NCBI RefSeq assembly: GCF_964204645.1
Contig: NC_134029.1
Coordinates: 19,276,950-19,340,949, forward strand
Source: Tubulanus polymorphus
Lineage: Eukaryota; Animalia; Nemertea
Direction of reading: 5' to 3'
DNA: 64,000 nt
Shown: in pieces, positions 531 through 55,619 of the stretch
Numbering within the stretch: the first letter of the stretch is position 1
Layout of the letters: every line of letters starts with the position of its first letter
Notes under the pieces: generated by a model
Told to the model about the DNA's origin: nothing
Seen by the model: only the letters and a program-made list of their open reading frames with translations
The model's database searches: none
Translations under genes and position numbers: made by a program

Positions 531-2150
531 AAACAATTTATCATTTCAACTGTCAAACAATTTATCATTTCAACTGTCAAACAATTTATCATTTCAACAG
601 TCGAACAATTTATCATTTCAACTGTCAAACAATTTATCATTTCAACTGTCAAACAATTTATCATTTCAACTGTCAAACAATTTATCATTTCAACTGTCAA
701 ACAATTTATCATTTCAACTGTCAAACAATTTATTATTTCAACTGTCAAATCATTTCAACTGTCAAACAATTTATTATTTCAACTGTCAAATCATTTCAAC
801 AGTCGAACAATTTATCATTTCAACAGTCGAACAATTTATCATTTCAACTGTCAAACAATTTATCATTTCAACTGTCAAACAATTTATCATTTCAACTGTC
901 AAACAATTTATTATTTCAACTGTCAAACAATTTATCATTTCAACTGTCAAACAATTTATTATTTCAACTGTCAAATCATTTCAACAGTCGAACAATTTAT
1001 CATTTCAACAGTCGAACAATTTATCATTTCAACTGTCAAACAATTTATCATTTCAACAGTCGAACAATTTATCATTTCAACTGTCAAACAATTTATCATT
1101 TCAACTGTCAAACAATTTATCATTTCAACTGTCAAACAATTTATCATTTCAACTGTCAAACAATTTATCATTTCAACTGTCAAACAATTTATTATTTCAA
1201 CTGTCAAATCATTTCAACTGTCAAACAATTTATCATTTCAACAGTCAAACAATTTATCATTTCAACTGTCAAACAATTTATCATTTCAACTGTCAAACAA
1301 TTTATTATTTCAACTGTCAAATCATTTCAACTGTCAAACAATTTATCATTTCAACTGTCAAACAATTTATCATTTCAACTGTCAAACAATTTATTATTTC
1401 AACTGTCAAATCATTTCAACTGTCAAACAATTTATCATTTCAACTGTCAAACAATTTATCATTTCAACTGTCAAACAATTTATCATTTCAACTGTCAAAC
1501 AATTTATCATTTCAACTGTCAAACAATTTATTATTTCAACTGTCAAATCATTTCAACTGTCAAACAATTTATCATTTCAACAGTCAAACAATTTATCATT
1601 TCAACTGTCAAACAATTTATCATTTCAACTGTCAAACAATTTATCATTTCAACTGTCAAACAATTTATTATTTCAACTGTCAAATCATTTCAACTGTCAA
1701 ACAATTTATCATTTCAACTGTCAAACAATTTATCATTTCAACTGTCAAACAATTTATTATTTCAACTGTCAAATCATTTCAACTGTCAAACAATTTATCA
1801 TTTCAACTGTCAAACAATTTATTATTTCAACTGTCAAACAATTTATCATTTCAACTGTCAAACAATTTATTATTTCAACTGTCAAATCATTTCAACAGTC
1901 GAACAATTTATCATTTCAACAGTCGAACAATTTATCATTTCAACTGTCAAACAATTTATCATTTCAACTGTCAAACAATTTATCATTTCAACTGTCAAAC
2001 AATTTATTATTTCAACTGTCAAATCATTTCAACTGTCAAACAATTTATCATTTCAACTGTCAAATCATTTCAACAGTCAAACAATTTATCATTTCAAATG
2101 TCAAACAATTTATCATTTTAACAGCCAAACAATTTATCATTTCAACAGTC
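531..2150. repeat. 24-bp minisatellite (AAACAATTTATCATTTCAACTGTC)n, ~70 units, with interspersed 17-bp truncated units
   Basis: Directly visible. Variants are TTATTATTT vs TTATCATTT, CAGTCG vs CTGTCA, and a short unit AAATCATTTCAACTGTC. Confidence 0.97.
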
Positions 2151-2223: not shown

Positions 2224-2538
2224 TTACTCTTTACACCAGTTTTTATGTTTAATTGTTTGGTAATGCTTTGATTTATGTGATTTTGAATATTTACCTCCGC
2301 AATAACAATGAATTTTTTCATTAGGATTAAATCTTTTGAATTCATTTTCTAAATCACATTGAATTGCGATATGTTTAAAAGATTTACTATTTTCTAAATC
2401 CGGAATCTTTTTATTATCATTGCTAAATAGTTCATGATCTTTGGGATAATTGCGAAAATCAAAATTATGTTTTAATGTTGTTAAGTCTTTTCTTATGTTA
2501 TTTGTTTTGATTTTTAGAGTTGAATTATTAATTTCGAG
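2224..2538 (-). CDS. ATG-less 104-codon frame, probable frameshifted continuation of the 2514-3137 ORF; second C2H2-like finger plus pPolB-like motif
   Basis: Manual translation: LEINNSTLKIKTNNIRKDLTTLKHNFDFRNYPKDHELFSNDNKKIPDLENSKSFKHIAIQCDLENEFKRFNPNEKIHCYCGGKYSKSHKSKHYQTIKHKNWCKE*. The C-terminal half is paralogous to the C-terminus of the upstream ORF. Confidence 0.6.
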   Translation of the reverse strand, partial: LEINNSTLKIKTNNIRKDLTTLKHNFDFRNYPKDHELFSNDNKKIPDLENSKSFKHIAIQCDLENEFKRFNPNEKIHCYCGGKYSKSHKSKHYQTIKHKNWCKE

Positions 2539-3137
2539 TTATGATATTTTGATTTAAGATGGTGGGATTTATTGCTTCGAGTATAATATTTTCCACAATC
2601 ACATAACACTTTTTCATTAGGTTCATATTTAGGCGTAACAATTTCATTATCTAAGTTACATTGAACTGCAACATCTTTATATGATTTTTCATTATCTAAA
2701 TCACATTGAATTCCAATATTTGATGAATTTTCATTATAGATAATTTGTTTATTATCAAAATTATAATAATATAATTGTCGTTTTTCAATTCTTAAGTCTA
2801 TCCTATCATTACCTTTTGAAAGTATTATATCACTTTCTCTTTCATTAAAAGGACATTTAAGAATATTTATTATGTTTTCATCTAAATTACCTTTATAATT
2901 TAAAACTGTATTAAATATTTTAGGATTTTTGGCGCCATTATCTAAAGTATCTATTAGTTCAGTAATTAAATATGTTTCATTTAATAATATTTGATTAATT
3001 ACAGTAATATTATCAATTTTATAATGTCTTGCGGACACTAAATTTGTTGCTGAAATATAATTTTTAATGTTAAACTGTGAAAATGATTTATTGGGTTCAT
3101 TGATTTCGATTTTGAAGTTGGGTTCTTCTTTCTTCAT
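2514..3137 (-). CDS. Hypothetical protein with a C-terminal viral-type C2H2 zinc finger (CDCGKYYTRSNKSHHLKSKYH)
   Basis: Longest non-repeat ORF in the window. First ATG at 3137 (ATAAAAATG); the track's start at 3161 is a GTG inside the 47-bp repeat. CxC-x9-HxxxxxH-type fingers are common in Polinton and large-DNA-virus accessory proteins. Confidence 0.7.
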   Translation of the reverse strand: MKKEEPNFKIEINEPNKSFSQFNIKNYISATNLVSARHYKIDNITVINQILLNETYLITELIDTLDNGAKNPKIFNTVLNYKGNLDENIINILKCPFNERESDIILSKGNDRIDLRIEKRQLYYYNFDNKQIIYNENSSNIGIQCDLDNEKSYKDVAVQCNLDNEIVTPKYEPNEKVLCDCGKYYTRSNKSHHLKSKYHNSKLIIQL

Positions 3138-3153
3138 TTTTATAACAAAATTA

Positions 3154-3435
3154 TTACTCACACTTTACTCACACTTTTAATATTGAACAATTTTATCATT
3201 TTACTCACACTTTACTCACACTTTTAATATTGAAAATCTCAATTATTTTACTCACACTTTACTCACACTTTTAATATTGAAAATCTCAATTATTTTACTC
3301 ACACTTTACTCACACTTTTAATATTGAAAATCTCAATTATTTTACTCACACTTTACTCACACTTTTAATATTGAAAATCTCAATTATTTTACTCACACTT
3401 TACTCACACTTTTAATATTGAACAATTTTATCATT
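3154..3435. repeat. Six tandem 47-bp subterminal repeats
   Basis: Unit TTACTCACACTTTACTCACACTTTTAATATTGAAAATCTCAATTATT starts at 3154, 3201, 3248, 3295, 3342 and 3389. Units 1 and 6 carry the variant GAACAATTTTATCATT. Confidence 0.97.
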
Positions 3436-6000: not shown

Positions 6001-8651
6001 TCCGTCCAATTGGTTCTTGTTAAGATAAGCGATGCAAAATGACTTTATCGCCATCCATCAGTAGGACACTAAGAATTTCAAAACCCAACTCTGCGAAACC
6101 GAGAGAGCGAGAAAATAATGATTCTCATCCATTAGATATATGAGTTGATAGATGAGATGCGAAAACATGTTAAAACTTGCCGAGGGATATTCAATTTTTT
6201 TATAACCTATTACACATTTGCTTTGTTATTTCTTTGTTATGTGAGAATATAATATTAATCATCAATTACGGCTCGCGGATATATACGAATATGTGAATGT
6301 ATTTTGAACCGTTGGCGCTTTTCATTTCAGTGGATAATTTCAAAGTGAAACATTACGCATCGGAGTTAGCCCGCGGTGTGCCCGCAAGATTGATTTTTTT
6401 TCGCGTTAAAACGTTTACAACGCGGAGAAAAAAAAACAAAAATATGTGCGCAGATACCTCGCCTACCCAGGACAAACTTTGACCGGTAATATTGGTCCGA
6501 GGTAAGTTAAGTGTGAATTTAAAAAAAATATTATAATCGTTTTTGTCCGAGTCAAAAGCCCAAGTAGGCGTCACATATCCGGTGAGTGCGAGTGTGCTCT
6601 GAGAGTGCCCTTATTTACCGAGAGGTGCCCTAAATCTTTCCTGCTCCCCCTCCTTGATTTATACCCGAGATCCTCCCCTGTATACATAGCCTTATAGTAA
6701 ATAGTAACGTTAAAAAATTTTGTTTACATCGGAATGCATTTTACCCATATATCGATCTCATAATACAATTTATAGATATATGTATAATAAAAATCCATAA
6801 ATGAACACTCGTTAATTGTAGTTGTTTTCACGCCCGATTTTCCGATAGATAGAGACTACTGTATATTAAAGACATATTCTCTCATTATAGGAAAAAAGCT
6901 TTGCGACGGGAAGGTGCACCGTCGCCAGTGCATGGCCCCGAGCGTCGAGGCTGAACATATCTGCGGTTTATTTGCCGTAGATTTGTGCGGATGATAATTA
7001 TTAGTCCTGTGTCATCATTGATTAGATAGAAATTGTCTATCAAACACGAAGCCAATTCCGTCTTCGGTTCTCGGGCAATTAACGGCTAATAAACCAGTTT
7101 TAGCAACGCCGACGGAAAATACCGTGTGGGTGATGTATCGACGTATTTGGAATCTATCTTAAACGTGAAACGGCTTCATCACGGGGATTCACATAGGAAA
7201 AGTTTTTATGGTTTTCTTTTAAACTTTCTTTTCTCGCTGATTCGAAATATAGCCCTTGGCAATTTTACCTGCTTAATATATTCTCGGTCGTGTAACACAG
7301 CTTTGCATTTAGCGCGACGATGCCGGCTTTTCGTTGGGAACCAACTTCACTCATTTGAAGTTCGATGTTTTTTTTTCAAACTATAAGAGCTATTTCTGGC
7401 TTGAGCCCGAAGCTGTTTTTGTAAGAAGTTACCCTTCCGAGGTTTTGTAGTCCCCGCGGCGCTGCTAACCGATGACTAACGGCAATGATTTTTTTAGTCT
7501 CCGGACAACGCTCGCGATTGTCGCAATTTTTTCAGCGCGGCGAAGGCGAATAGCCATCGATTTATAATTCAGAAAGCTGCCGGTAAACGTTCCACATCAG
7601 TGATCGGAAAACAAAGTGCCGTGTCTATATAGCAAAGCAGTTGCTTGTGGCCCTGTTGGTTTGAATCCGAAATTCACGAGTCAGATTGTACGTCCTTCCC
7701 GCTTTGCTCGTTGATCGTTCACCTGCTTCCTCAGCCGAGGGAGTTTCTAACCCTTCTCGAAGCCTCTAATTAGCTCACCGATACTCCGCTCAGTCTGTAC
7801 GTCTGCATACCTATCCTTTCGCGAATTATGCTGCTTTGATAATATAAGCACCTAGAAACACCCAGTTTGACATTTCAACTATGATATGTATATTGATCAG
7901 TTTGTTCTTTTATGCAATGTCTCTCAAATTGTATACGAAATTCATGAGATATAATGCCGCAAAATATCTATAGATAGCACTTGGAGAATGGTGACCGACA
8001 CAGAATATCTAATGTAGAAAATTATTGACTTTAAAGTGTGACATTTATTTTCGTTAAATATTGTGAATTACACACCTCGATTGTGCCGCAATTTCCAAGA
8101 TAAAAGCCTTTGCTGCAAACTTAGTGAAAATTCTAGAATTTACTATTTTGATCCTTTGAAAGGAACGCACAACTTGGTACAATGAATCGAATTGCTATCG
8201 ATAGAAATTGCATCAGCACCATGAGTTGAAAGTATTCGATTTTGTGTCATGTCATGAAACAGTTGTCTTCGGTCGAATCTTTTCAAGGATATTTCCAAGA
8301 TGGAATTCTACCAGGCTATATATATGTTTTATAGAAAGTTTATATATTGATTATGTTACCATCAGGTTTTGCCGTCTATATAAGATTATCTACGTAATAA
8401 TGAACGGAATTGTAGATGATTATTTCCTCACATAAATGACATTGTATTTCACGCCGATTACGACCAATATTTGTTAGGATTGGTCGTATACGTAAAAATC
8501 CCCAATGCTTCAAAGTAGGTAATCTCCCGTTTAAATGCGAAGTGCATTCAATTTATTCATATTTTACTAAGTATACATTACATACGAATATCATGAGCAT
8601 TGATTGAATTTGAATTGAAAAATACGAATTACAAATCAGAAGTCCAGTATT

Positions 8652-18819: not shown

Positions 18820-20152
18820 TATGGTGGCTGATAAGGGCCATAGCGTAAAATTCCTGGTATGTAAATGAGGGCGCCAGAACGCCAGAACGCCAAAACGAAA
18901 AAAAACGTCCAATTTTCTCTAAAAGTTCGTTTTGGCGCGCCAAAACGGAGAATATTCCGTTTTGGCGCCCCCGCCAAAACGAACTTTCATTTTGGCGCCC
19001 CCGCCAAAACGAACTTTCGTTTTGGCGCCCCCGCCAAAACAACGAAAAACGTCCAATTTTCTCTAAAAGTTCGTTTTGGCGCGCCAAAACAAAGAAAATT
19101 CCGTTTTGGCGCCCCCGCCAAAACGAACTTTCATTTTGGCGCCCCCGCCAAAACGAACTTTGGTTTTGGCGCCCCCGCCAAAACAACGAAAAACGTCGAA
19201 ATTTCTCTGAAAGTTCGTTTTGGCGCGCCAAAACGGAAAAAAATTCCGTTTTGGCGCCCCCGCCAAAACGAACTTTCATTTTGGCGCCCCCGCCAAAACG
19301 AACTTTGGTTTTGGCGCCCCCGCCAAAACAACGAAAAACGTCCAATTTTCTCTGAAAGTTCGTTTTGGCGCGCCAAAACAACGAATATTCCGTTTTGGCG
19401 CCCCCGCCAAAACGAACTTTCGTTTTGGCGCCCCCGCCAATACGAACTTTAAACCACGTAAAATAATTCTATATATACGTAAAATATTTTCATTTATGCA
19501 AATTTATGCAAATTACACACAAGATCAACGCGCCAATTTGAAAAATAATTTTACTGTGGTTGAATGCTTGTTTTGGCGGGGGCGCCAAAACGAAAATAAC
19601 CGCGCCAAAACGAACTTTTCTTTGTTTTGGCGCGCCAAAACGAACTTTCAGAGAAATTTCGACGTTTTTCGTTGTTTTGGCGGGGGCGCCAAAACGAAAG
19701 TTCGTTTTGGCGGGGGCGCCAAAACGGAATATTCTCCGTTTTGGCGCGCCAAAACGAACTTTTAGAGAAATTTCGACGTTTTTCGTTGTTTTGGCGGGGG
19801 CGCCAAAACGAAAGTTCGTTTTGGCGGGGGCGCCAAAATGAAAGTTCGTTTTGGCGGGGGCGCCAAAACGGAATATTCTCCGTTTTGGCGCGCCAAAACG
19901 AACTTTTAGAGAAATTTCGACGTTTTTCGTTGTTTTGGCGGGGGCGCCAAAACGAAAGTTCGTTTTGGCGGGGGCGCCAAAATGAAAGTTCGTTTTGGCG
20001 GGGGCGCCAAAACGGAATTTTCTTTGTTTTGGCGCGCCAAAACGAACTTTCAGAGAAAATTGGACGTTTTTTTTCGTTTTGGCGTTCTGGCGTTCTGGCG
20101 CCCTCATTTACATACCAGGAATTTTACGCTATGGCCCTTATCAGCCACCATA
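18820..20152. mobile_element. 1.33-kb foldback element with ~600-bp modular inverted arms, TATGG...CCATA termini and a 6-bp TSD
   Basis: The terminal ~85 bp are perfectly inverted; GTATTT is duplicated at 18814-18819 and 20153-20158. Arms are built of GTTTTGGCGCCCCCGCCAAAAC and GTTTTGGCGCGCCAAAAC palindromes; AT-rich spacer at ~19451-19569. Confidence 0.93.
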
Positions 20153-20590: not shown

Positions 20591-21983
20591 TTCGATCCTT
20601 TTCGTTATCTTTGTTCGTATCGTCCGTCGTTTTTTCCCGCTTGTTATGTTTTCTCTCATATTTCGGGATCGGCGAAGAAGCTGTTGCTTGCGCATATATA
20701 CATGCATGTATTATTTTAAATTCATCAATTATGCGTAAAATATATTTGACGATATTATAAATTCAACTAATGATTGGATTTGAAAATAACAATCTCGAAA
20801 ATAGATTGATTTTGGTCCGTATTGTACATCATTTCCCAAGTTAACTCATAACGGAAACGTTGCTCGCGGAAATGTCAGGTGCATGCTGGTAAACGAATTT
20901 AAAAATCATTTCAAAAAAGCAATAAGTTCTTTGTGAGCAGAATTTCTTGATGGTATCTTTCATTAATATACTAGTAGCATATAGAATTTCCACCGTCAGA
21001 TGTTGCGATAATTGGACGAAGCCTTTTTCGAAAAACACTCCTACTAAATTATTCACCTTAATGCATTTTGTCGATCTTCCCCACTCGTTTTACCTTAAAC
21101 AGTCCCTGATGAAATATTGAAACTATAATCTCCAAAAGAAGCGCGATGGACTGTCGAAACTTGAGTGTAAATGTTGTTTTTGTCAAGCAAGGGGACGGAT
21201 ACAGCTGGTTAAGTTTTCTCTACCCGTTTGCGCAGTTGTGACTCCTTAAGACGAGTCATTAAGTTGTTAGATTCACTATAGAATTCTTGAATCTATGACT
21301 GGCCCCTGGGACTCAGTTGCGCCGTTGTGTCCCAAAAAATTGTTTTCATTAAAATTATCTTTGATTTTCAATTTCTAGTATGGCTACACCCTTCTGGAAA
21401 AATGGCTTCTTTCATTAAATTTCCCTACTCAACCTAGTGACATCATCCTACGAAACCTTTGATAAAGCAGACTGGTTCTAAATAAGTATTTAATATAAAT
21501 GTAATAAAATATGCCCATATACACATGTAGGGGCGAATCCAGGAAAATCGTGGTATATTCTGGTAATGAAAAAGAGCACTTCTATAGAAAGGGATCATAT
21601 AGAACTGAGTTACGGACGTACGGAGTTCAAAAGATGAAATTATCAAAAATTATAAACACAAAATTCAAATCTAGCGTAACAAAAATATTAACTCGTGATG
21701 ATATAATCGGTGCACGAACATCAGTATAGTACTATTTATCTGTTTTTATTTTGATCTGTGATACTTAAAAAGGGAACGCAAAGAGGGGTTTCGGATCCGG
21801 GAACCCACTCCCCGGGAAGGAGGGGGGGGGGTATCAAACTTCAAAGCTTTTAGTTATTGAGAGATGTTCTGAAGAAACGAGTATCAATGAGACAATGAAT
21901 TTCACCGCACAATTCGAAGAGAATTACAGAAAATTCCATAAAATAAATCCATTAAAAAGATGCCATGAAATGTTCTGTGAAAC

Positions 21984-22146
21984 GTGAATGCATTTTTCAT
22001 CAACATTTCGGCTATCATAGCCATCATCAGGTGCGCTGGTGTGGGATTAAGTTACATGCATAAGAATTATTAATGATACTAGTAACATATTCCTGATGAT
22101 GGCTATTAGATAATAGCTGAAACTTTGATGAAAAACTCATTCACAT
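21984..22146. ncRNA. Divergent inverted pair of degenerate Penelope-type hammerhead motifs
   Basis: Minus strand CTGATGA-T-GGCTATGATAGCC-GAAA (22006-22030) and plus strand CTGATGA-T-GGCTATTAGATAATAGCT-GAAAC (22093-22123), enclosed by inverted flanks TGAATGCATTTTTCATCAA / TTGATGAAAAACTCATTCA. Confidence 0.6.
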
Positions 22147-25100
22147 TTAGCCGAACCGTGGAATCTAAAACGTTTTAGTCTTATAACATGGGAATTGCTC
22201 CCCCACTATAGAATTTTTAGCAGCGTTGATAATCTATGATCGCCATCATCGAAAATTTGAAGGACACTTTTTCAAAAGGGGTCCGTCCGTCGAACTAACC
22301 CACATCCTGCGTACGGCCCAGCCCAACTGATACATGTTTCATTGATCGCCTAAACCTTATTTTCAGTAGCTCATCTATTACAATTACGTAAACACGGAAC
22401 AAGGGCTTAGAATTGCTGAAGTGACGCTTCTTAAGGATTTAATCTGTTTCTTGCAAATCAAAATCGTAAAAAACAATCAGGAATAATTCTCGTCGAAATA
22501 ATTAGAATTCTTGATATCTCCGCGCGCTTGTAAGCTTTTCCTCAAATTCGTAAAATCCGGGAAACCGGTCTGATTAGACAGATCAGTCGGACAGATTTTG
22601 AAACCGATCCTTCTAACGCAAGCCAGTTTCATTAGTGGCCGATCATTTAAGAAATTTAACAAATTCGAAGTATCGAAGTTATAAAGAGAAGACTTAAAAG
22701 TGACGGAGATTTTCAATCGAAAAATCTAAGTTCGGTGAAATCGTTGATGAGTGTCTTAACCCATAAGCCCGTTCCTTCTTAGGTCCGTGGTAGCGAGCTT
22801 TATCTTGGAGTATTAATTTTGACTGCTTTAACTATTGCATTTACAGTAAGAACCGACTGTAGTGACGAAAATAATATCACAGGTAAAAACACTCGATATG
22901 TTATTCATCGTAGTCAATTCCTCGATGGACTCGAGAATGAATACGAATTCTTTCGCCGGTCTTGTATTACAAGTATTTACCTTTGTAAGACAAGACAGCG
23001 GAGGGAACATTTGATAACCTGTTTTTTTAGCGCGACACACGAGAACCACCGACATTTGCTTTTTGTATCGGCTTTATGTCGAATCGGAGCCGAAACCAGA
23101 GGAGACAGGCGTATCAGAAAAAACTACGATCAAACGAGTAAAACCGAAAAGATTTTTTGCTTAATGGTTTCGTGATGAAAGATTAATATCGACGAAAGAT
23201 TGCAGATCTTTTTTCGCCGGGATGGATTGCTGGGTTTAGGAATTTTTCGTGACAAGGGTCAAACACTGTTAGTAAATATAAGAGACGTATTCAATGTATT
23301 AGTTTTGCTAGGAATTTTATGATATTTTATAATAAACTTATAAGTAAATATGTGTATGAAAATAAAGAAACCGCGTTTCGTATTCGTAAAAGAAACCGAT
23401 GAATCTTAAAAATATACCCGGGTCAGTGAGTTGCTCAAAAGTTGGTTAAAATTAGCAGCAAAAAAAAACAGCGGATATAGTTGGAAAAGGTCTCTCTGTA
23501 CTATGTACTAAGGAAGGCTCCTGATTCTCGAATAACGGCGCAGATCAAGAACATACAATGCATCTTAGAGAATATAACCAAAAGGATGTGGTATTGTGAA
23601 ACGGCAAACTGCAGTTTCACTGGTTAATTAGATGAATTCATTTCCAGTGATGCGCAGCCCTTGGGTCAAATTTTATGGAACTGAGTCACGTTCTATATAT
23701 TCTAATATCCAGATATTCCTTTCGGGTACAATCTCTAAATCTATGGATCCTTTTGGCGCGAACTAGCGGCTATTTCATTAGTTGTGTTAGGTCCCCAATA
23801 AAAACCTCGTAGACAAATTCTCACCAGGCGATGCATGCAAGCGGCCTGCGCATACCTAGCTGAAGTTCGCCATCTTCTCCCAGCAGATATTTCTGGAAAT
23901 ATACCGCACGCCTATGACTGATAACAACCATATACATGTACTAAGGTTGTATTTTTAAAAAACAACGTCCGCGACCTCTGCGTTTGACGAATTTGTTTAG
24001 ATCGGATGTATAGTCCGACAATACATAATCTGCATAACAGAACGATAACCACACTCATCTTCAGGTCACCTGACAATACATAATCACAATACATAATCTG
24101 CATAACGTTTCGGTTCGTGTCGATCCGTGTTTCAGTTTGTATTCTTTTCGGGGAGTATTCATCTTACGATTCAGGGTTTTAACTTAAGATTCCGATTGGC
24201 GCTGCAATTTTTGCGGCAAACCAGCGCACCCGTTCTAGTGTGGCAGTGTATATTTACATTTTAAATAGGAAATACTTAAAATATTTCCTTTTTTTATAAA
24301 TACTTTCAAGTAGTTAATTTTTCCTTTCACTCCGCGTCCTAATTCTTCAAATATTGTTTTCCATGACACCGGATCACCCTCGGTTTCAACGGTGTTTTCG
24401 CTATGTAGTTACTGAATGTGTCTAACGGAGTTGAACTCATTGTGTTAGCGCGCAGAATGTTTTATGGATTGTTTCTTTTTATCTCTCACTTCTGGAAAAG
24501 GCGATTAAATTTTTGAGCTTTAAAAACTGTCCGCAAACCGAGGAAACGTCATACCGCAGACAGAATTCCATCAAATATATAAAACGTATTAAGCACTTAT
24601 ATATATTCTTTGAATTGAAATACTATAATTGCCATCTACCTCAATGAGTTCCGTAGGTTTTTTCTAGTGTCTAGCTTCTAGCGTGACGTACGCGCGTCTA
24701 GAATTTCTCGAAGCCATTCGCATTTTATAATCGTAACGAAATACGATCAAGTTTATTGTTTTGCGCATTCGTATTTCGAATTCAAAGCAACTGCTGAAAC
24801 TTGACGAGTGCCGATCGATTCGAAATTAGAAAAAGATTAAGTCATTTCTATTTATATGAATCATGCCACGCATTATCACCCTTGCCTACATAGATGTCGT
24901 TTGCCGATTGATTTTTGAGCCGAAAGAGCTGCTGAAAATTGAAGATATAATGTACATACTATTTGTTGATGGTGGATTTCAAATTGTAGGGAATAGGAGC
25001 TACAATCTCATATCTCACACCTTCTCTACTTTTTCGTTGAATCGTCGTTAGATTCGCAAACTTAGATTCCCGAAATCTATCTCTATGAATAATTTTCGGG

Positions 25101-27492: not shown

Positions 27493-27659
27493 ACATTCCA
27501 ATAGTCATCTGCAGGACTACTAATGTTACAACAGCAATTATTAGATATATGTGTATATACAATCCGAAACAAAATACTAATCAAAATCAGAAGAATGAAC
27601 GAATTTATTTTTCATCGTATCGATGACAATATAGATATAAGCAATGATTATATACAATA

Positions 27660-34745: not shown

Positions 34746-35134
34746 GGGATTTCTTTGCGGAGATTACGCAAACGCCGGAGATTTCATTGACATCGACTCC
34801 TTAATTAGCAAGTCAAAGAAAACGAAGCGCTCATCAGATGAACAGCAAGAGAAAAAAACCAGAAACCGAAGATAATTTTAGACGATTTTATATTTTTGAG
34901 ATATCGCTGTTGTATTAAGCTATTATTTTACAAAGCAACGATTCCGTTCGTCGCTACTCGAATTTCCGTTTTTTTTAGTTAATTCTGAATTAAGCTAATC
35001 ATGTTGACGTGGAAATTACGTAAATACCATCCGCAATCGTGTAGGGATTCGAACCTGATGACATCGCAAGACTCGGCATTCGATGACGTGATCAGGATGA
35101 CTCAAATATATACGATGTCTATATATACTCAGTC

Positions 35135-35268
35135 AGTACTCCTGATGATGGCTAACAGTTGTTAGCCGAAACATCGCTCCTCAAATACAATCATTCTGAT
35201 ATAGAATTTTTCAATCTTGGCTTCGTTATTGTGGGATTTCTCTCGTCATCATCATACACGGATATTGT
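35135..35268 (+). ncRNA. Degenerate Penelope-type hammerhead motif with conserved flank
   Basis: CTGATGA-T-GGCTAAC(AGTT)GTTAGCC-GAAAC at 35142-35172. The downstream sequence is reverse-complementary to 50892-50950 and similar to 48480-48590. Confidence 0.6.
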
Positions 35269-47095: not shown

Positions 47096-48611
47096 GTTTT
47101 AACCTTTAGAAGAGATAAATCTAATACATAATGGAACTTCTGTTCTGATGCATGAAATCATATTGTTGCAGTAGATATAACATTTTGACCACTTCACCTC
47201 AACTTAAGATAACGACGGCGCTTTAACTCATCTGATTCCCGATTATCAACACCAGTCTATATAAAAGATAAAATTAGATTTTGGACCTTATCTATATTTA
47301 CAGGTGGCCATCGGCCTTATCAACATTCTTTTAGCTATTTGGCCAACCTCCTAATCTATAATGGTCGTGAAGATTCGAATTTGATTGACGGAATGTTAGA
47401 AAAATCGTAGTCGCCGCCATCGTGCGGTTCTTAAGGTTAATAAAACATGTAGATAACTCAAAGACTTTATTATCCTGCAGTGATGCGAAATTGACCAGGT
47501 CATCGGCGCAATCCCCTGGCACTTTAAGCGACGATTAATCCCCTTCCGGACTCGACTGTCTTTCTTCGCCGTCGCTATCTAAGCCGTCATCGGCGTTTTT
47601 TTTGCGCGCGCGCGGCATTGACGGAGCTTAGCGCTAAAACTTATCTTCGGCACAATACGGGTGACAGCAATTCCTACATCGGGTTATGGACAGTACATAG
47701 CAGTAGATTACCCGCTGTCATTTTCTGTCATTGTATCGTTTGTTTCGGACCATGTCTGCCCGAGAAACGACGTCTCTCTAATATCGTAAGGATTACCAGT
47801 ATTCATCGTCGTCGAGTACCTTTAATTATACCCCGTTAACGATGAATCTGAAGTAACGAGGCGAATTCGCGATTAATGGAAAATTTAACCTATCAAGTTA
47901 AAAGAGCCAATTAATTCCGTTCTAATGCCGCTGGAAATCTATTTTTGATAAAGTGATCTTTTTGAAGGTGATCATTATCGATGAGGGCAGATTTCAGATT
48001 TGAGTTTGTTGATATACAATATCCATTTTTCCATCGGGAGAACGCTAGCTATGTTATCGGTAATATCAAACGATCTTTAACTCGCGCTTGCTTGCTCGTT
48101 AAATGTCATTATTCTTCGATATAGCCACGAATTCGATACAAGTCGCCGATAGGTGCGATGAAAGTATTTTGATAAAGAAAAAAGCCCCGAAACCTCGATA
48201 CCGATCAAGACGACGGCGGATTCGCGTCATATAACCTGTAGGTCTTGTAAAGACGGGTACAAAAATTGATAAAAGTTAACAATACTCTACGGGCTGAGAC
48301 TAATTTCAGACATAAATTTGCCAAATTAATCCATAAATTTGATTGCGTTCATCTGAAATTGTGCGATGTATAGATCCTTAGGTTGTTTTAACTCCTTAAT
48401 CCTCCTTTCTTCTTCTTAATCAATCACTTCGTTTGATTCTTGTATAGATATCTTGAAAATGTATTCTGTATCAGTATATACGCCCGATGATGGCTATTAG
48501 GCGAGGAAACGTTGCTCTGAAAGTACAATCATTTAATTCTAGAACGCAATATCTTTCGCTGAAATTATTGTTTGTTTTCTTACGTAAACCATATATACAT
48601 TATTTCGATTA

Positions 48612-48940
48612 AATAATGATAATAATGATGATGATAATAATAATGATTATAATGATAACAATAATAATTCATTGCCTTAATTAATTCCATATAAGATATG
48701 CTGTTTGGCTTACAGAACTACGATACACGAATTAGAATAAATAGTAAAACAACAGTTAGATATAAAAGAGGAGTCCTCAAGAATAAGCTTTGATAAAAAG
48801 GTGTGTCAAAATTTGAAATTTTGAGGCATCTAATGATGGGCTAAATCGTAATTTGTAAGGTAACCTATTTAAAAGAAACGGCGCACAATTTAGGATCAAG
48901 TTATTGTAAGTCGCGTGCAAGGACTACATGGAGTCTTCTG
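48612..48940 (-). mobile_element. CR1/L2-group LINE 3' remnant with (ATT/ATC)n tail
   Basis: Minus-strand LILNCAPFLLNRLPYKLRFSPSLDASKFQILTHLF; microsatellite tail at 48612-48668. Confidence 0.6.
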
Positions 48941-50962
48941 TTGAATTGGCGATTTTTAATCATGAAATGACTTCTGTTCTCATCGTGGCCCCTATACGCT
49001 GATATACATCGCTTATCAGTCCTCGCTTCGCCTTCGGTAATTTTTCATCTCTGACTGATTGACTGGTATACAGCGTCATATAAGAATTAATGCTGTGCTT
49101 TTATTTTCAACAAACCACTGTGTGCCACTTAGCCAAACGAGTTGGATTGATTGATTCTGCCTGTCAGAATCCAATTGCCCCGTAACTGTTAATCATACCC
49201 ATTTACTGCCGCAGAAATCGCGGAAATATAACTGCCATTTTGTTTGCCGTGGTCTTTTTGTGCATAGGTGGATGTGCATTGTGTCAACTTTTATTTCGCG
49301 ATGCGGCTTTCGTTCATCAACGATTTGTGGCCGGTCTCACTTTGTCGGCGCGTCTGTGCTGAGCGATATATATTACCGAGGCGGGCTTTTTGCTATTATT
49401 TTCGCCGTTAATAAATAAAGTGTAGGCTACATCCGTTTTCAAGCGTGCCTTGCTAATGAATATACCTATTCCGATGATAGTATCGTATAGCGCGCATAAA
49501 ATCAGAAATGATGATTTATATTCGTTCATTAACAACCAGACAGGCGTTACTTTATCCGAATATCTTCTTAGAAAAAAAAAAACGCAACCGACAGACCGCG
49601 ATATGAAGGTCAGGTTTATGAAAAAGGGCCACCGGTTTCCATTCCGAAGTTGGCCATCGCCAACACCCAAGCCCTTGTGTGGTTTCAAAAAGTGGCGAAA
49701 ATCAATATAACCGAAAGATGATAAATGGACCAATCAATCGATAGTGTAAACGGGCCCATTTCCATATCCAGATCAACATAATTCGACTTAGTGGTTACTT
49801 AGAAAACTATTCGAATCTAAAACCGTCGTTCGAAAAATTCTGAATTTCACCTACGTTTACCATAAGAACCCTTTTAGCTCTTTCGTCGAATTGAATGCAC
49901 TTCAAAAAATGATAATAATCTTATTTCATTCCTTTGATTGGGGGCCCCAAAAATATCAGAGGTATAAATATTTGCTTCTATCTTAGCTTAAGAGGCCAAT
50001 TTGAAACTTTTCTAATTTCAAGTTCAAACACGTGTAACGAGCCTTCGAGTGAAATAATTGGCCGTATTATATAAAAGCAAATTCGCTCTTTTTAATTCAA
50101 AAAGAAAACTTTTTAAAATTCTAATTGCAATTAGATTCCACTATCTAATTGACGGTACTTCAAAGCTTTCGCTGCATTTCTTGTGAGTTTCGTTATTGGA
50201 TACGGCTGTCCACTGGAGAATTGGAGTTGAGAGAGAAGGATTTTTTTTTTGGTCAAAGCAAATTGGACATGCAGACGATCAAAGAAGCACTGACCGATGC
50301 GGATTGTTCGTCGGCAATTCGCTTAAAACGGTGAGAAATAATACTCGTTCGTCGTCTGGCGACCGTCGTGTTTTAATTAGATCAAATAAAACAACTTTCG
50401 AAGGAGCACGTCAGTACATGATAAATGCATCTAGTGAGCCGAACTCGTGCCCGCGGGGACACTTAATTTAGTCGACTGAGTTTAAAAGGTTTTAGAATAA
50501 TGCGCGTGATAGTGTTGTTAAAACGGTTCTAATTACATTCGGGGTAGAGAAATTTAACGTATTGATCCCGCTGTACGCGAGCTCGACGAGCGCAGAGACA
50601 AATCGTATTTCGTACCGTATAGCGTGAAATCCGACGAAACTCTTTTGCAATCCATTTCTCACGAAGAAAAATTGGTAATATTCGGCAAAACGCTATGTGT
50701 AGATGTACGTAGATTAGGTTACGTATTCACTAAGGCGTATCACTTTAATGGGTGCATTTCGCTACTTTTAAAATGCCAAACTCAATTCAAGTGATTTAGA
50801 AGTTTATGTTAGGACAAAGCATATAACAAGATATAATCCTACAGCTGAGGTCTGAGGTCCTCAATTCCAACCAAAACGTTAGAAGGTCTCCATATCCGTG
50901 TTGTGACGATATGTGAGATAATTAGAGAATCCCATATTAATAACGAAAAAGTATAAGGTTCT

Positions 50963-51590
50963 AAAATGTTTCCAAGAGTATAGTAATGTTTATTCGACGT
51001 TGATACTGATATACTTCTGAAGATGACTGTTGGGATATAGTCGAAACGTCGAATAAACTACTAGTTCAAGGAATATAGTATTCCTGAAGACAACTATTAG
51101 GATATAGTCGAAACGTCGAATAAACTACTAGTTCAAGGAACACAGTATTCCTGACTATCAGGATAAAGTCGAAGACGCGTATTAGGATATAGTCGAAATG
51201 TCGAATAGACTACTCGTTTATGCCATACAGTATTCCCGAAGATGAGTATTAGGGTATTGTCGAAACGTCGAATAAAATACTAGTTCAAGGAACACAGTAT
51301 TCCTGAAGATGACTATCAGGATAAAGTCGAAGATGAGTATTAGGATATAGTCGAAACGTCGAATAAACTACTAGTTCATGGAATACAGTATTCCCGAAGA
51401 TGGCTATAAGAATAAATACGAAACGTCGAATAACCTGCTAGTTCAAGGAATACAGTATTCCTGAAGATGACTATCAGGATAAAGTCGAAACGCCGAATAA
51501 ACTGCTTAGTACGAGGAATACAGTATTCCTGAAGATGACCATTAGAATACAGTCGAAACGTCGAATAAACTATACTCAAGGAAACATTTT
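50963..51590 (+). ncRNA. Tandem array of eight minimal type I hammerhead ribozyme units (Penelope-type), ~67-nt period, enclosed by ~34-bp inverted repeats
   Basis: Consensus TATTC-CTGAAGA-T-GACTAT(TAGGAT)ATAGTC-GAAAC-GTC^GAATA. Cores at 51017, 51084, 51151, 51236, 51303, 51394, 51461 and 51529. Confidence 0.8.
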
Positions 51591-52239
51591 CGGACTTAAT
51601 ATTTTTTCCTCATCAAGTTCTCTCTATGCGCATTCAAAACGTCAAGAATAAGTCATAAGAATGCTATACAGTCATCGCCACTGCTGCTAATTTGTAGCGT
51701 TATGCTTCAAAGCCTAGACTGCCTTGTTAGGTTCGACACTCGAGCGACGGATTGATCTCCCCCCTCGTTTTACTGTCGCTCAAAACATCAACGTTAATTA
51801 GAACGGAGAGCGCGGTTGGTTGTGAAGTAATGAATTTGATTCTGTTCGACCACAAAGAAACAGCTTCGAACAGAACGAGTAATAATTGCGCTTAATAAAG
51901 CGTAGAATTACCGCTCGGCGGTTTACATTACAGCTCTCAGCGGTATACGGCTATATATGATCATTTAGAAAATCGCTACCAATTTCCTCTATAAATACCG
52001 CAGATAACGGCTTGAAATTTCACACTGCGTTTTTCTGTGCTGTCGTCTTGAACCGCACGGGGGCTGGATTGACTGACCTTTGGTCTAATCGCTATTTCAG
52101 AGGCGACGGAAGCAAATTTCCAACGGGCAACCAAAAACTGCTAAGACCTATATGGTACAATGCAGGAGGTAAAATACCAAGGGGTATACCATTAAAAATG
52201 CTAGAGGTAGAAATGTTAGAAGAACATGTGCAGGGAATT

Positions 52240-52430
52240 GATAGATACAAATATCATGATATCGTTTATGATAGTGGAACAAATATGGTCTTGCTTCTCC
52301 AATTAATGTTAGCAAGATGGTGTGGTAAAATGATTAAGGCAAAAGAATTTATACCGTTTCTCCATTCTGTTGAGCTTTAAAATTGACCCAGCTGGTGGCC
52401 TATTTATCTACCCTTTACATAACTCTTTTT
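52240..52430 (-). mobile_element. Possible LINE AP-endonuclease remnant
   Basis: Minus strand gives INRPPAGS (IYRPP-like), followed after a frameshift by LANINW. Confidence 0.35.
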
Positions 52431-52439
52431 AAAAATCAT

Positions 52440-52520
52440 GATCAAGCTAACTATAAGACGCGGCAGTTATAGAAATGAACTGATTACAAATCTTATTGCG
52501 ACTTACAAATTATGACCATA
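52440..52520 (+). repeat. Short dispersed repeat, also at ~61409-61490
   Basis: ATCAAGCT...CGGCAGYTATAGAAATGAACTG...ATTACA...TATTGC is shared by both sites. Confidence 0.65.
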
Positions 52521-53989
52521 TCGACACATCTCGCGGAGTAGTTCGGATTTTTAAACTATTTGTACGATTTCGAATGACGACGTGTTTGATACAAACAAAA
52601 TCAGCGAATCGGTAACGTCGGCGCCGCGACCCCCGAGGGATGACTCATTTAACAAATTTACAACTTCAAAACGTTCGCCAGTTCGAGATGAATTAAAAGA
52701 ATTTTTCCTCCGTTTCACGATTCGAGAGCATTAAAACCGGAGACCGATGGCAATTGCATTTAACTGCGTTGCGCTCGCTATACCTGACTTGAATGATTAT
52801 GGGCACTGATCCGTACGAAGATGGATGGCCTACGCCATTAATGCTAATCGTATATGTGTAAACTGATCTAACACACTTTGCCAAGGGAGTTCTACTGTTT
52901 GCTAAGTGGATTTCATTAAAACGTTTTTATCGAAATGATCCGTCGCGCGATGTTGTCAATCAGATATTAGTCTCGACTTCTTCGACTTCCGAGAATCGAT
53001 TTGATTCGTCTTCTTCTTTCATTTTTCGACGAAAATGACGACTGTAAAAGGACCGTGAAGCGCATCGTTATTCGAAACGTATTAATACGGATTAGTACGG
53101 TAAAATGACTTGCCTCATTCAGTCACCATTCACCTGTTCAATTAATGCCCGTCGCAATTTATTTTATGCCTCTCTTTTCGAACTGGTTTCGAATTAAGCC
53201 GGGAAAGTCGTCAGGAAAAATGAGGCAATTCCAAAACGATTCCAAAGACGGATCGTTCAATGCTTCAAATCAGAAGATAATTCCGTGAGATTAATCAATC
53301 GGCAAGGGTACCAACTTTTCAAAGATCGTGCCAAGAGACCGGCATGTATACTGAATCCATATGTAGTCAAATTGAAATATAGCCTTTACAATAATGTGTA
53401 GTTAATTGATTAATGTATAGTTAATTAGATTTTGCTTTTACAAAGCACTGCAAATGTTGAGACACGACCTTTCGACATGTTGGCACAATGTAAATTGCAA
53501 GTGAACTGAATGGATAGCTAAGAACTTGTAGTACGTCTGTAACTGAAAGTATCAAAATTCATAGTATACAAATTTCTAGCATATATACACAGTTCACTTG
53601 AAAATGACATCGTGTTAACATTTTAAAACGTCTTAATATTTCAAGCATGTAGTATAACGGGATCTTGAACTAACTTCATTCAAATCTTATAGTTGATCTT
53701 ATTCGCGATCTTACCTTATAAGACGTAACAAAAAACTAATAGCTGTTTGGATCCAGTTCCACAGTGACTCTCTGAGTTAAAATCAGTTAATATTTAATGG
53801 GTTAACCCCCTGTCAAATCTTAATTCACAACCGTGGAAATGGGTCGTGGGTTCATAGGCACGAATCCCGATGGTAGCACATTTATTTCGGGCGACAGGTC
53901 GATTCCCCCGTAAACGGGTTCGCCGATCTCTGAGTGGCGCGTGAGGCTCACGGGACTGGGAATTCAAAAATTGATCTGGCAGTCCCTCC

Positions 53990-54199
53990 TTCCACAGTTA
54001 AGTCAGTCCGTCTGCAGCCAGGTTTTCCCCAAAATTCTTGGAGAAGCTTGCTGTCAACCTACGTGCCATTTCATCCATTGATGAATTTAAGAAACATCTG
54101 AAATGTTTCCTTTTTAAGGAAGCAGCATTTCATCATTTGTAAAGCGCCTTGAGCAGCTTTACTGATTTAGCGCTATACAAGCCTCATTGTTATCATTAT
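53990..54199 (+). mobile_element. L2-clade LINE 3' end
   Basis: EKLAVNLRAISSIDEFKKHLKCFLFKEA followed by the typical L2 3' stem-loop TGTAAAGCGCCTTGAG...TTAGCGCTATACAAG and an (ATT)-like tail. Confidence 0.8.
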
Positions 54200-55619
54200 A
54201 CCAGTATTAGAAAGCCTGACAGTTAAAACGCGAATAAGTTGATTTCCCGATTATTGAAAACTTCAATGTACAATTTTAGCCCTCAACTGAGTACGCATCA
54301 ACCAATCAATCTCAGACAACGAGAATAGAATCGGAAACACAATAATATATTTTTCGTCTGCTCGCCTGGAGCAGTTCTTTTACGCTATTTAAGAACGTCG
54401 TTTATCAAAATTGGAAAATTGAGTTGATTTTATTTACGCCCTTTTTCGCGGATACCGAATTTCACAATATCTTATTTTGTTTTACCTTTGGTCTATTTTG
54501 CTACTATCGAATTTATCAGGCGAACTTCCACCCGGGGAAAAACAATGCGAAAAATTGATAACGACCGGTTTCGACATCGATCGTCGAATTAAAATATTCC
54601 GCTACTTCAAGTGTATTGATTCAAGACGTAGCTAAATGCATAACAATATCGTATTCTTCGCATCCCAATTACATCGATTCAAACGATCATAAGGAAATGC
54701 TGTTCATTCTAGATTTAGAATAAATGAAAACACAACGCGTACGCGCGCCATGTTAACCCTGTTAAACACCTGATTTTATTTGCGTTTCGCAGGCTATTTA
54801 TAGCCGCGCAAGATCATATTTGGTATCTTCGAAATTTCGCGACATCTCCGTGTTTTGGGTGTAGTCGCGTGAATCAGAAACAACGCCTGGGAATATGAGC
54901 TTTTTCTCGGTGTTGTGGTATTGCTTTGCAAAACATAAACTCTGTACGACGTGTGTGTGTGCGTGTAATGTCTTAAACGAAAATTTCACCTTCTTTCGAA
55001 AAAAGCTTGACTTTGAAGGTGGTTCATTGGAAAATGTATGGCCTCAAGATTTAACCCCATTCCGTTCATCGATCGAAATAGATCATAGTTGATCCTGGAA
55101 TTTCAGCTTCTGAATATTTAATCTAATAACTACACCGTGAAGTTTATTCGATCAGAATTCCGCCTTTTGGTTTTAGGTTATTTTCAGCTATGATTTTCAG
55201 AAAGACTTTAAGGTCTGAACACACGTCAGGGCAAGATGTTTAGCAAAATATTGATGACGATTACTATTTCTCGTTAGAAAAAGAGAGCTCAAAACTGCTT
55301 CGAAATAGAAAATATTAAGTAAAGTGTTAGTGAAAATACAGATTTCGTGAAGGATTTGTCATCACACTACCCAAATCCGAATGTTCGACTGGTCTGGACA
55401 GATTAGCTGTGTTCGGGATTTACGTGGATAAGCCGCCTGATCTCCGCTAATCCGCCACGGTGGACGTGTGAAGTACTTCACGTCGCAGAAAAAAAACATA
55501 GAAAAACGTGCGAGCCATTCTGGCGGTTCGTGCCAGATATACGTCAACTCCCTCGACTGATCGCTAATAGATTCTAAAGCGATCTAGCGACGCGCTGACC
55601 ATAAAACCCGAGACGCAAT

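What the first reader, a model, noticed from the sequence alone, without database searches (positions are those of the whole stretch)
50963..51590. Octameric array of minimal, dimer-dependent hammerhead ribozymes
Seen: eight ~67-nt units whose consensus gives stem I TATTC/GAATA, core CTGAAGA, stem II GACTAT/ATAGTC, then GAAAC-GTC. Units 2, 5 and 8 keep the core, the GUC triplet and stem I. Units 4 and 6 have CCGA, unit 7 has GCC, and unit 3 is rearranged. Established: Penelope-like elements carry minimal type I hammerheads whose loopless palindromic stem III (here ACGU) can form only between two copies. Inference: a transcript could self-process into ~67-nt multiples and possibly circles, i.e. 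a retrozyme-like satellite with a unit far shorter than typical retrozyme monomers and no PLE ORF nearby.
Basis: partly seen in the sequence, partly recalled or inferred. Interest (0 to 1): 0.85.

Follow-up and report, generated by a model that had tools for sequence, protein, structure and literature searches.

The report
Decayed Penelope-spread mini-hammerhead array
Eight tandem copies of a tiny self-cutting-RNA motif are really there, with an inverted copy of their own end in front; this is likely a worn passenger copied in by a Penelope-type jumping gene, a known kind of element, and it is predicted to cut itself poorly if at all.

Summary
The eight minimal type I hammerhead units are real. 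The element is larger than reported, 50937-51616: an inverted copy of its own 3' end precedes the array and a ~30-nt tail follows, the layout described for Penelope-like (PLE) insertions. Contigs of the same organism show a very abundant family: solo copies, the same tandem junction and head-to-head joints elsewhere. The same loopless hammerhead subtype, with a compensated stem II, lies about 80 nt behind a GIY-YIG endonuclease frame in locus L009. This copy is worn: no unit of normal geometry is intact, a 158-nt block was duplicated with its defects, and the dimer fold is 18-34 kcal/mol above the minimum. The tail lies outside the 67-nt unit yet marks both ends, which argues against a bare 67-nt circle as template. 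Units of 51-972 bp are already reported, and this scan found similar arrays on other DNA. Verdict: new member of a known kind; cleavage and expression untested.

The parts
50937..51616 (+). whole insertion: inverted arm + eight units + tail
   Evidence: outer limits are uncertain by a few bases
50937..51008 (-). inverted, 5'-truncated copy of the element's 3' end (cut site, 3' strand of stem I, linker, tail); shares the TATACTC variant with the last unit only
   Evidence: 65 nt, 77%, E 4e-8; score 57 against a maximum of 28 in 1311 control windows
51012..51055 (+). unit 1: core, stem II (6 pairs, one G-U) and GUC intact; 5' strand of stem I broken at the inversion junction; site 51050
51079..51122 (+). 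unit 2: core, stem I, GUC intact; G10.1 lost; site 51117
51146..51207 (+). unit 3: 24-nt stem II duplication plus 6-nt deletion in the core; site 51202
51231..51274 (+). unit 4: U4 changed to C, two stem II mismatches; substrate side intact; site 51269
51298..51365 (+). unit 5: 24-nt stem II duplication; all elements present if stem II closes a 30-nt loop (predicted probability 0.003 in the full array); site 51360
51389..51432 (+). unit 6: U4 changed to C, three stem II mismatches; substrate side intact; site 51427
51456..51499 (+). unit 7: best catalytic half (core, stem I, 5 of 6 stem II pairs); own site GCC; site 51494
51524..51567 (+). unit 8: core, stem I, GUC intact; stem II 4 of 6 pairs; site 51562
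51118..51427 (+). higher-order duplication: units 3+4 (152 nt) and 5+6 (158 nt), 134 of 152 aligned bases identical, sharing the 24-nt duplication and the U4-to-C change
51446..51462 (.). unit junction that is a perfect 8+1+8 palindrome (again at 51514-51530); the linker end is complementary to the 5' strand of stem I and the first core bases
51587..51616 (+). 3' tail, not part of the 67-nt unit; present after the last unit and in the inverted arm; family copies end at varying points within it
   Evidence: (depth falls stepwise 51590-51620; loose ends)

Best explanation
The array is likely an old insertion of a non-autonomous, Penelope-dependent mini-element (non-LTR retrozyme class) whose 67-nt unit is little more than a minimal hammerhead and a linker. 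Shown: eight units with hammerhead anatomy, an inverted 5'-truncated copy in front, a tail at both outer ends, an abundant family with the same tandem junction elsewhere in the organism, and the same hammerhead subtype behind a GIY-YIG frame in another source. Inferred steps: (1) the unit derives from the hammerhead-bearing terminal repeat of a PLE; (2) an uncut, tail-bearing multimeric transcript was reverse-transcribed from the tail by a PLE RT/endonuclease acting in trans, giving the direct array and the inverted arm; (3) afterwards the copy decayed and one 158-nt block was duplicated at the DNA level. If transcribed, stem III (ACGU) could form only between two units, each core cutting its partner's site; the least damaged pairing would be the core of unit 7 on site 51562 or 51427, and of unit 5 on any intact site. 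Competing hairpins (linker against stem I, tail against core, arm against arm) are predicted to dominate, so cleavage would be weak or need a protein.
For: Inverted arm; described as typical of PLE insertions, with an optional 30-40 bp tail (PMC8557442; PMC3846280). Family: 1829 contigs of run X1 lie on 50300-52300, summed depth up to 2.7e5 on the units against 24-28 on the flanks (not a copy number); many begin at 51521-51525 with unrelated upstream DNA (agreement 0.40-0.48) and end in the tail; 'goes back' joints with the linker between and opposite-strand joints at the unit's 5' end occur in other contigs. PLE link: 5 of 103 loci from a relaxed pattern scan carry the loopless subtype, 4 of the 5 with the same stem I; in L009 a 106-aa open frame stops about 80 nt upstream, its nearest Atlas clusters score 0.95 with GIY-YIG on 11-42% of members, and an 83%-identical protein hits PF01541 at E 1.1e-6; L068 has the same adjoining inverted copy. 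Covariation in the class: stem II pair 2 is A-T 72, G-C 44, G-T 2, A-C 0 of 118 motifs, though the pattern allowed A-C. Decay; the family majority restores both stem II mismatches of unit 8. In a PLE tested in vitro, uncut RNA was the substrate, RT started in the tail region and the ribozyme cut only with protein (PMC11167929).
Against: No target-site duplication at the element's edges. No autonomous PLE of this organism was seen: no genome is held, and the L009 link is to another source, 80-82% alike over about 50 nt only, with no RT on the contig; only 1 of 118 motifs had an endonuclease end within 700 nt upstream, and the L009 frame itself has no Pfam GIY-YIG hit above cut-off. Within the array stem I (0 differences in 70 cells) and the core (4 in 111) vary less than linker plus loop (24 in 221; p 0.002 and 0.034), which could mean constraint, though units were registered on these motifs, cells are not independent, three missing stem I strands were left out, and stem II varies freely (15 in 100). 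Folding programs ignore the tertiary core and any chaperone.
Confidence: 0.65

Rival explanations
1. A solo ~90-nt PLE stump with its inverted arm landed here and grew to eight units only by local DNA slippage or unequal exchange: a minisatellite with a hammerhead fossil in it.
For: The 158-nt duplication and the 24-nt duplication are DNA-level events that copied inactivating changes; the junction has a 2-3-nt microhomology and is palindromic; solo copies are common; the preprint discusses local amplification of terminal repeats.
Against: The same junction with the same linker stands in other contigs (goes-back joints; 20 contigs with the linker as loose end; summed depth 9e4 at 51513-51518), so the tandem form was not invented at this locus unless it arises again and again.
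Confidence: 0.17
2. One reading: the array is transcribed, cuts itself as dimers into 67-nt multiples, these circularise and are copied round by an RT, so this is a working rolling-circle retrozyme.
For: All eight sites keep H17 and six keep ACGU; stem I and core vary less than the linker; the high-depth family form has intact core and stems; dimers and trimers of such motifs cut weakly in vitro (PMC4209133).
Against: The tail is not in the 67-nt unit but is at both ends; solo copies begin at the 5' strand of stem I, not at the cut site; no adjacent pair is intact; the dimer fold lies 18-34 kcal/mol above the minimum for the 7 real pairs, 13.9 for the array consensus, against 7.6 for a young 94-nt array (L078); 83-92% of depth at H17 is U rather than C, a weaker triplet than GUC (PMC2238771); 8 of 9 tested retrozyme dimers did not cut.
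Confidence: 0.12
3. A miniature DNA transposon with ~70-bp terminal inverted repeats and internal repeats that resemble a hammerhead.
For: The element is framed by inverted arms.
Against: The arm is an inverted piece of the unit's own 3' end; no duplication; family copies are solo without arms; the subtype sits behind a GIY-YIG frame.
Confidence: 0.03
4. The unit number or order is an assembly artefact of a high-copy repeat.
For: No listed contig spans the array.
Against: Units differ from each other (76-88% identity among five) and from the family majority; both outer parts match contigs with 0 differences.
Confidence: 0.03

Closest known systems
Minimal type I hammerheads (min-HHR) of Penelope-like elements (Cervera and de la Pena 2014, PMC4209133; parts 1-2 of 4 read, 2 of 3 supplements searched)
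   Same: No loop 3, palindromic 15.2-16.2, extra base between 9 and 10.1, G10.1-C11.1, short helix I; thousands of mostly solo copies away from PLE frames; opposite-strand pairs.
   Different: Here also in a tight head-to-tail array; the text read gives tandems of about 3 kb and, in a supplement, 450 bp; helix II is 6 bp against 7-8 bp in Schistosoma.
Non-LTR (animal) retrozymes (PMC7229834, passages; Li, Clavereau and Pollet, bioRxiv 10.64898/2026.07.22.740005, parts 1-3 of 5)
   Same: Non-coding tandem repeats, one type I hammerhead per unit, GC below 50%, solo and multimer copies, proposed PLE origin; unit length inside the preprint's 51-972 bp.
   Different: Unit far below the 170-400 nt of the proven circular RNAs; minimal rather than canonical hammerhead; this copy fails the preprint's 'two consecutive complete motifs' rule; no RNA evidence.
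Endonuclease-bearing PLE insertions with direct and inverted pLTRs and tail (PMC8557442, PMC3846280, PMC11167929; passages, one section part)
   Same: Inverted 5'-truncated copy adjoining the 5' end, optional tail of about 30 nt, palindrome-rich junctions.
   Different: No RT-endonuclease frame, no clear target-site duplication, repeat reduced to 67 nt.
Dimer-cleaving small hammerhead variants of PLEs (Lunse, Weinberg and Breaker, RNA Biol 14:1499; title seen in reference lists only, text not held)
   Same: By title and by the review PMC6765202: short palindromic stem III, cleavage as dimers.
   Different: Could not be compared in detail.

Membership tests
min-HHR (type I) | CUGANGA core, GAAA and UH in order | tested here: met
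   Core intact in 4 of 8 units in normal register, 5 of 8 with unit 5's long loop; UH in 7 of 8
min-HHR (type I) | Helix I of 4-5 bp, helix II with G10.1-C11.1 and an extra base after A9 | tested here: met
   Met by the array majority; G10.1-C11.1 in 7 of 8; stem II complete in unit 1 and long-loop unit 5 only
min-HHR (type I) | Loopless palindromic helix III | tested here: met
   ACGT in 6 of 8 units
min-HHR (type I) | Compensatory changes among copies | tested here: inconclusive
   None inside the array or in the family rows listed; present between families; alone is weak (score reached by 8 of 500 shuffles, pairs with double change by 164 of 500)
min-HHR (type I) | Self-cleavage as dimer | not testable with these tools
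   Folding predicts the dimer form is disfavoured
Rfam RF00163 Hammerhead_1 | Gathering score 34 bits | tested here: not met
   No hit in 48000-55000; 12.6 bits, E 3.5, partly mis-paired, in 51430-51600; a model of the canonical form is not expected to fit a motif without loop 3 (inference)
Non-LTR retrozyme | Non-coding tandem repeat with a type I hammerhead per unit | tested here: met
Non-LTR retrozyme | Dispersed multi-copy family with solo and multimer forms | tested here: met
   (contigs of three runs, one study, at most two samples)
Non-LTR retrozyme | 'Active' copy: two consecutive complete motifs (preprint's rule) | tested here: not met
   No adjacent intact pair; checked by anatomy, not with the preprint's pipeline
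Non-LTR retrozyme | Expressed as linear and circular RNA | not testable with these tools
   No RNA run was available to lay
PLE insertion | Inverted 5'-truncated copy adjoining the 5' end | tested here: met
PLE insertion | Optional 30-40 bp tail | tested here: met
   51587-51616, also in the inverted arm; stepwise depth loss
PLE insertion | Target-site duplication | tested here: not met
   No direct repeat abutting both edges; one exact 6-mer lies inside the arms; PMC3846280 reports copies with and without
Autonomous PLE | RT + GIY-YIG frame | tested here: not met
   0 of 205 frames; tblastn with the L009 frame and 11 relatives finds nothing better than E 0.12 in the window

The most novel reading that the evidence does not exclude
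The window holds a worn copy, but the high-depth form elsewhere in this organism (intact core, perfect stems I and II, GUU site, same tandem junction) is a live retrozyme of only 67 nt, close to the smallest possible self-cleaving mobile RNA. Its unit folds into a panhandle closed by the 8-bp match between the unit's 5' end and the linker end, so a PLE reverse transcriptase could jump across that panhandle and make head-to-tail multimers without a covalent circle.
Probability: 0.15. Interest if true: 0.6.

Novelty: new member of a known kind. Interest (0 to 1): 0.25.

Why it matters
It adds one short-unit family to a known class and shows, in one locus plus relatives, the chain that the field has proposed: PLE-terminal hammerhead (L009), inverted-arm insertion (this locus, L068), tandem array (this locus, L078). 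The tail outside the unit and solo copies that start at stem I rather than at the cut site favour uncut linear RNA as the mobile template, in line with the one in vitro PLE study. A 67-nt unit is cheap to synthesise, so the family would be a convenient test of whether cleavage or circles matter for spread. The locus itself is probably ordinary transposon debris.

Tried and rejected
No genome is held, so no genome-wide count or search for the parent PLE. Run search: 3 holders, one study, no RNA holder listed; this says nothing on expression. Rfam: nothing meaningful. Family-specific patterns found 0 loci in viral contigs and 0 in metagenome contigs; only the relaxed pattern gave loci (103 listed from 1 of 64 parts scanned). 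My strict descriptor (stem II 4 or more, stem I 3 or more, no mismatch) found 0 motifs in the window, as in shuffles, i.e. no unit passes it; that regex also skipped overlapping alternatives. Pfam on 136 of 158 frames of 110 aa or more in the fetched loci gave one RT hit (L044, E 1.6e-8, not examined further) and no GIY-YIG; the L009 frame (106 aa) fell below that length limit and was found by reading the DNA. An endonuclease-like piece 1.96 kb downstream of the motif in L073 is separated by other sequence and was not counted. Single-unit folding z-scores are weak, -0.8 to -1.9, so the panhandle is an observation, not a result. Target-site duplication search negative. Look-ups of earlier findings by sequence and by place were empty. 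Literature: 6 searches; none of the listings showed this family or a 67-nt unit, but the organism is unknown to me, the preprint's supplementary tables (which list its 51-bp and other short families) were not seen, and Lunse et al. is not held.

Full report
Observation. The window is gene-poor, repeat-rich DNA of about 38% GC and looks like animal intergenic or intronic DNA (inference); no genome is held. Between 51012 and 51567 lie eight units with sites at 51050, 51117, 51202, 51269, 51360, 51427, 51494 and 51562, spaced 67, 85, 67, 91, 67, 67, 68. A 22-nt piece matches 7 times against 0 in 100 shuffles. Rfam does not call it.

State of the units. In normal register none is intact: unit 1 has a broken 5' strand of stem I, unit 2 lacks G10.1, units 4 and 6 have U4 changed to C and 2-3 stem II mismatches, unit 7 has GCC, unit 8 has two stem II mismatches. 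Units 3 and 5 share a 24-nt duplication of stem II; unit 5 is complete only if stem II closes a 30-nt loop. Units 3+4 and 5+6 align over 152 bases with 18 differences and one 6-nt gap and share the duplication and the U4 change: a DNA-level duplication that copied defects. Five standard units are 76-88% identical (mean 83%). No compensatory change occurs inside the array. Against a purely neutral reading, stem I (0 of 70 cells) and core (4 of 111) differ less than linker plus loop (24 of 221), while outer stem II does not (15 of 100); units were registered on these motifs, three missing stem I strands were left out and the cells are not independent, so this is weak.

The 3' end (51550-51616) has an inverted copy at 50937-51008, scoring 57 against a maximum of 28 in 1311 control windows. 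Arm and last unit share a variant that no inner unit has, as expected if both were copied from one template end. About 30 nt of tail (51587-51616) lie outside the 67-nt unit and appear in both arms. An adjoining inverted 5'-truncated copy and an optional 30-40 bp tail are described as typical of PLE insertions (PMC8557442; PMC3846280). No target-site duplication abuts the edges. No RT or GIY-YIG family is hit by any of 205 open frames of 62 aa or more (frames in two satellite regions left out).

The family in this organism. Three runs of one study, at most two samples, all contigs, hold the region. In X1, 1829 contigs lie on 50300-52300; summed depth reaches 2.7e5 on the units against 24-28 on the flanks. 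The tool warns that this is no copy number; I read it only as 'very abundant'. Laid on unit 8 and tail (720 contigs in X1), many copies begin at 51521-51525 with unrelated DNA upstream (44, 38 and 36 contigs, agreement 0.40-0.44) and end within the tail; others carry the linker upstream or go back from the linker to the unit start; opposite-strand joints join two unit 5' ends. So the family has solo copies of about 80-90 nt, head-to-head pairs and tandems with this same junction. The majority restores both stem II mismatches of unit 8 and shows no listed variant in stem I or the core at 51519-51539. H17 is U in 92%, 89% and 83% of depth in the three runs (seven sites listed), while all eight units here have C. 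Solo copies start at the 5' strand of stem I, not at the cut site.

Relatives elsewhere. A relaxed pattern gave 103 metagenome loci with 118 motifs from 1 of 64 parts scanned. Stem II pair 2 is A-T in 72, G-C in 44, G-T in 2 and A-C in 0, although the pattern allowed all four (about 27 A-C expected if independent, my arithmetic; kinship inflates this). 94 of 118 have a 6-nt palindromic stem III, 13 loci have opposite-strand pairs, and L078 is a 6 x 94-nt tandem at 95% identity. Five loci (L009, L060, L064, L068, L073) have the loopless subtype, four with the same stem I and all with a different, paired stem II. In L009 a 106-aa frame ends about 80 nt upstream. It has no Pfam hit above cut-off, but its nearest Atlas clusters (0.95) carry GIY-YIG on 11-42% of members and a protein 83% identical to it hits PF01541 at E 1.1e-6; the contig ends before any RT. 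That this is a PLE 3' end is inferred from the endonuclease-then-hammerhead order. L060 and L064 share 170-181 nt of that end, and L068 has an adjoining inverted copy like the window's. This is 1 of 118 motifs with an endonuclease end nearby, and it is another source, so it shows where the subtype lives, not the parent of this family.

How it would work. Stem III can form only between two units, and then each core cuts the partner's site. Catalytic halves are best in unit 7 and long-loop unit 5; substrate halves are intact in units 1, 2, 4, 5, 6 and 8. The dimer structure evaluates 18-34 kcal/mol above the minimum for the seven adjacent pairs (normal register) and 13.9 above for the array majority, against 7.6 for the young L078 array. 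In the whole element the two arms pair (probability 0.87) and inter-unit stem III stays below 0.01. The linker end is an 8-base complement of the unit's 5' end, and the tail pairs with the core, though z-scores are weak. These models ignore tertiary contacts and chaperones. Published behaviour points the same way: monomers inactive, dimers and trimers weak; 1 of 9 retrozyme dimers cut; a PLE hammerhead cut only with protein, was not needed for insertion, and RT started in the tail region of uncut RNA (PMC11167929). Because the tail is outside the unit yet at both ends, a bare 67-nt circle cannot by itself have been the template here. The simplest history is an uncut, tail-bearing multimer copied by PLE enzymes in trans, then decay and one local duplication. 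Transcription, cleavage, the parent PLE and the order of events are inferred.

Comparison and novelty. It works like, and meets the sequence features of, a minimal PLE hammerhead and a non-LTR retrozyme; it fails the preprint's rule for an active copy and was not testable for RNA circles. The unit is much shorter than the 150-450 bp repeats and 170-400 nt circles of PMC7229834, but family consensus lengths of 51-972 bp are reported in bioRxiv 10.64898/2026.07.22.740005 (its supplementary tables were not seen), L078 has 94 nt, and this scan has noted comparable arrays in other genomes, one with 15 units in 779 letters (unchecked notes). Papers seen: PMC4209133 parts 1-2 of 4 and a search of 2 of 3 supplements; the preprint parts 1-3 of 5; PMC11167929 passages and one section part; passages of PMC7229834, PMC8557442, PMC3846280, PMC6765202, PMC7761336, PMC2238771; Lunse et al. 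by title only. Hammerhead numbering and the general roles of U4, G10.1 and U16.1 are from my own knowledge.

Verdict. Real feature, new member of a known kind, this copy probably worn out. Interest 0.25. The open, more interesting object is the high-depth intact form elsewhere in the organism.

Noticed in passing
window 21972-22031 (-) and 22088-22156 (+): Head-to-head pair of decayed minimal hammerheads of another family (CTGATGA core, stem II with G-C at pair 2), 77% alike over 65 nt.
   Followed up: partly
window 35133-35195 (+) and 48475-48535 (+): Two solo decayed minimal hammerheads sharing a 3' part with each other, a probable third family.
   Followed up: partly
window 27495-27521 (-): 5' half of a unit of the array's own family, 85% over 27 nt, E 0.001.
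   Followed up: partly
window 51025-51027 and equivalent places: An ATG overlaps the start of stem II about 26-28 nt before the cut site, the geometry reported for the anole PLE start codon; the frame closes within a few codons here.
   Followed up: no
family contigs laid on window 51554-51563: C-to-T and G-to-A variants cluster at CpG sites in the core end, as from methylation-driven decay; C-to-T at H17 is far above its G-to-A partner, so U17 looks like a real subfamily trait.
   Followed up: partly
window 531-2150: 24-bp satellite, about 71 copies, with a 113-bp higher-order period; opens all three + frames.
   Followed up: no
window 2514-3164 (-): 216-aa AT-rich open frame ending in a CxxC...H...H zinc-finger-like motif, between two satellites; no Pfam hit.
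   Followed up: no
window 18820-20152: Foldback-like element: 448-nt inverted arms, 95% complementary, built of 30/144-bp sub-repeats.
   Followed up: no
window 8205-8432 (+): Weak Pfam hit to a P-element-type transposase insertion domain (PF21788, E 0.0027, below cut-off).
   Followed up: no
L078:2-565: Young tandem of six 94-nt minimal hammerhead units, 95% identical, 6-nt palindromic stem III; the last two have U4 changed. A better candidate for a cleavage test than the window's array.
   Followed up: partly
L068:3411-3565: Solo loopless hammerhead with an adjoining inverted copy, the same layout as the window element without tandem units.
   Followed up: partly
Metagenome contigs: The relaxed minimal-hammerhead pattern is estimated to hit about 30000 stored stretches, apparently eukaryotic DNA within metagenomes.
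   Followed up: no
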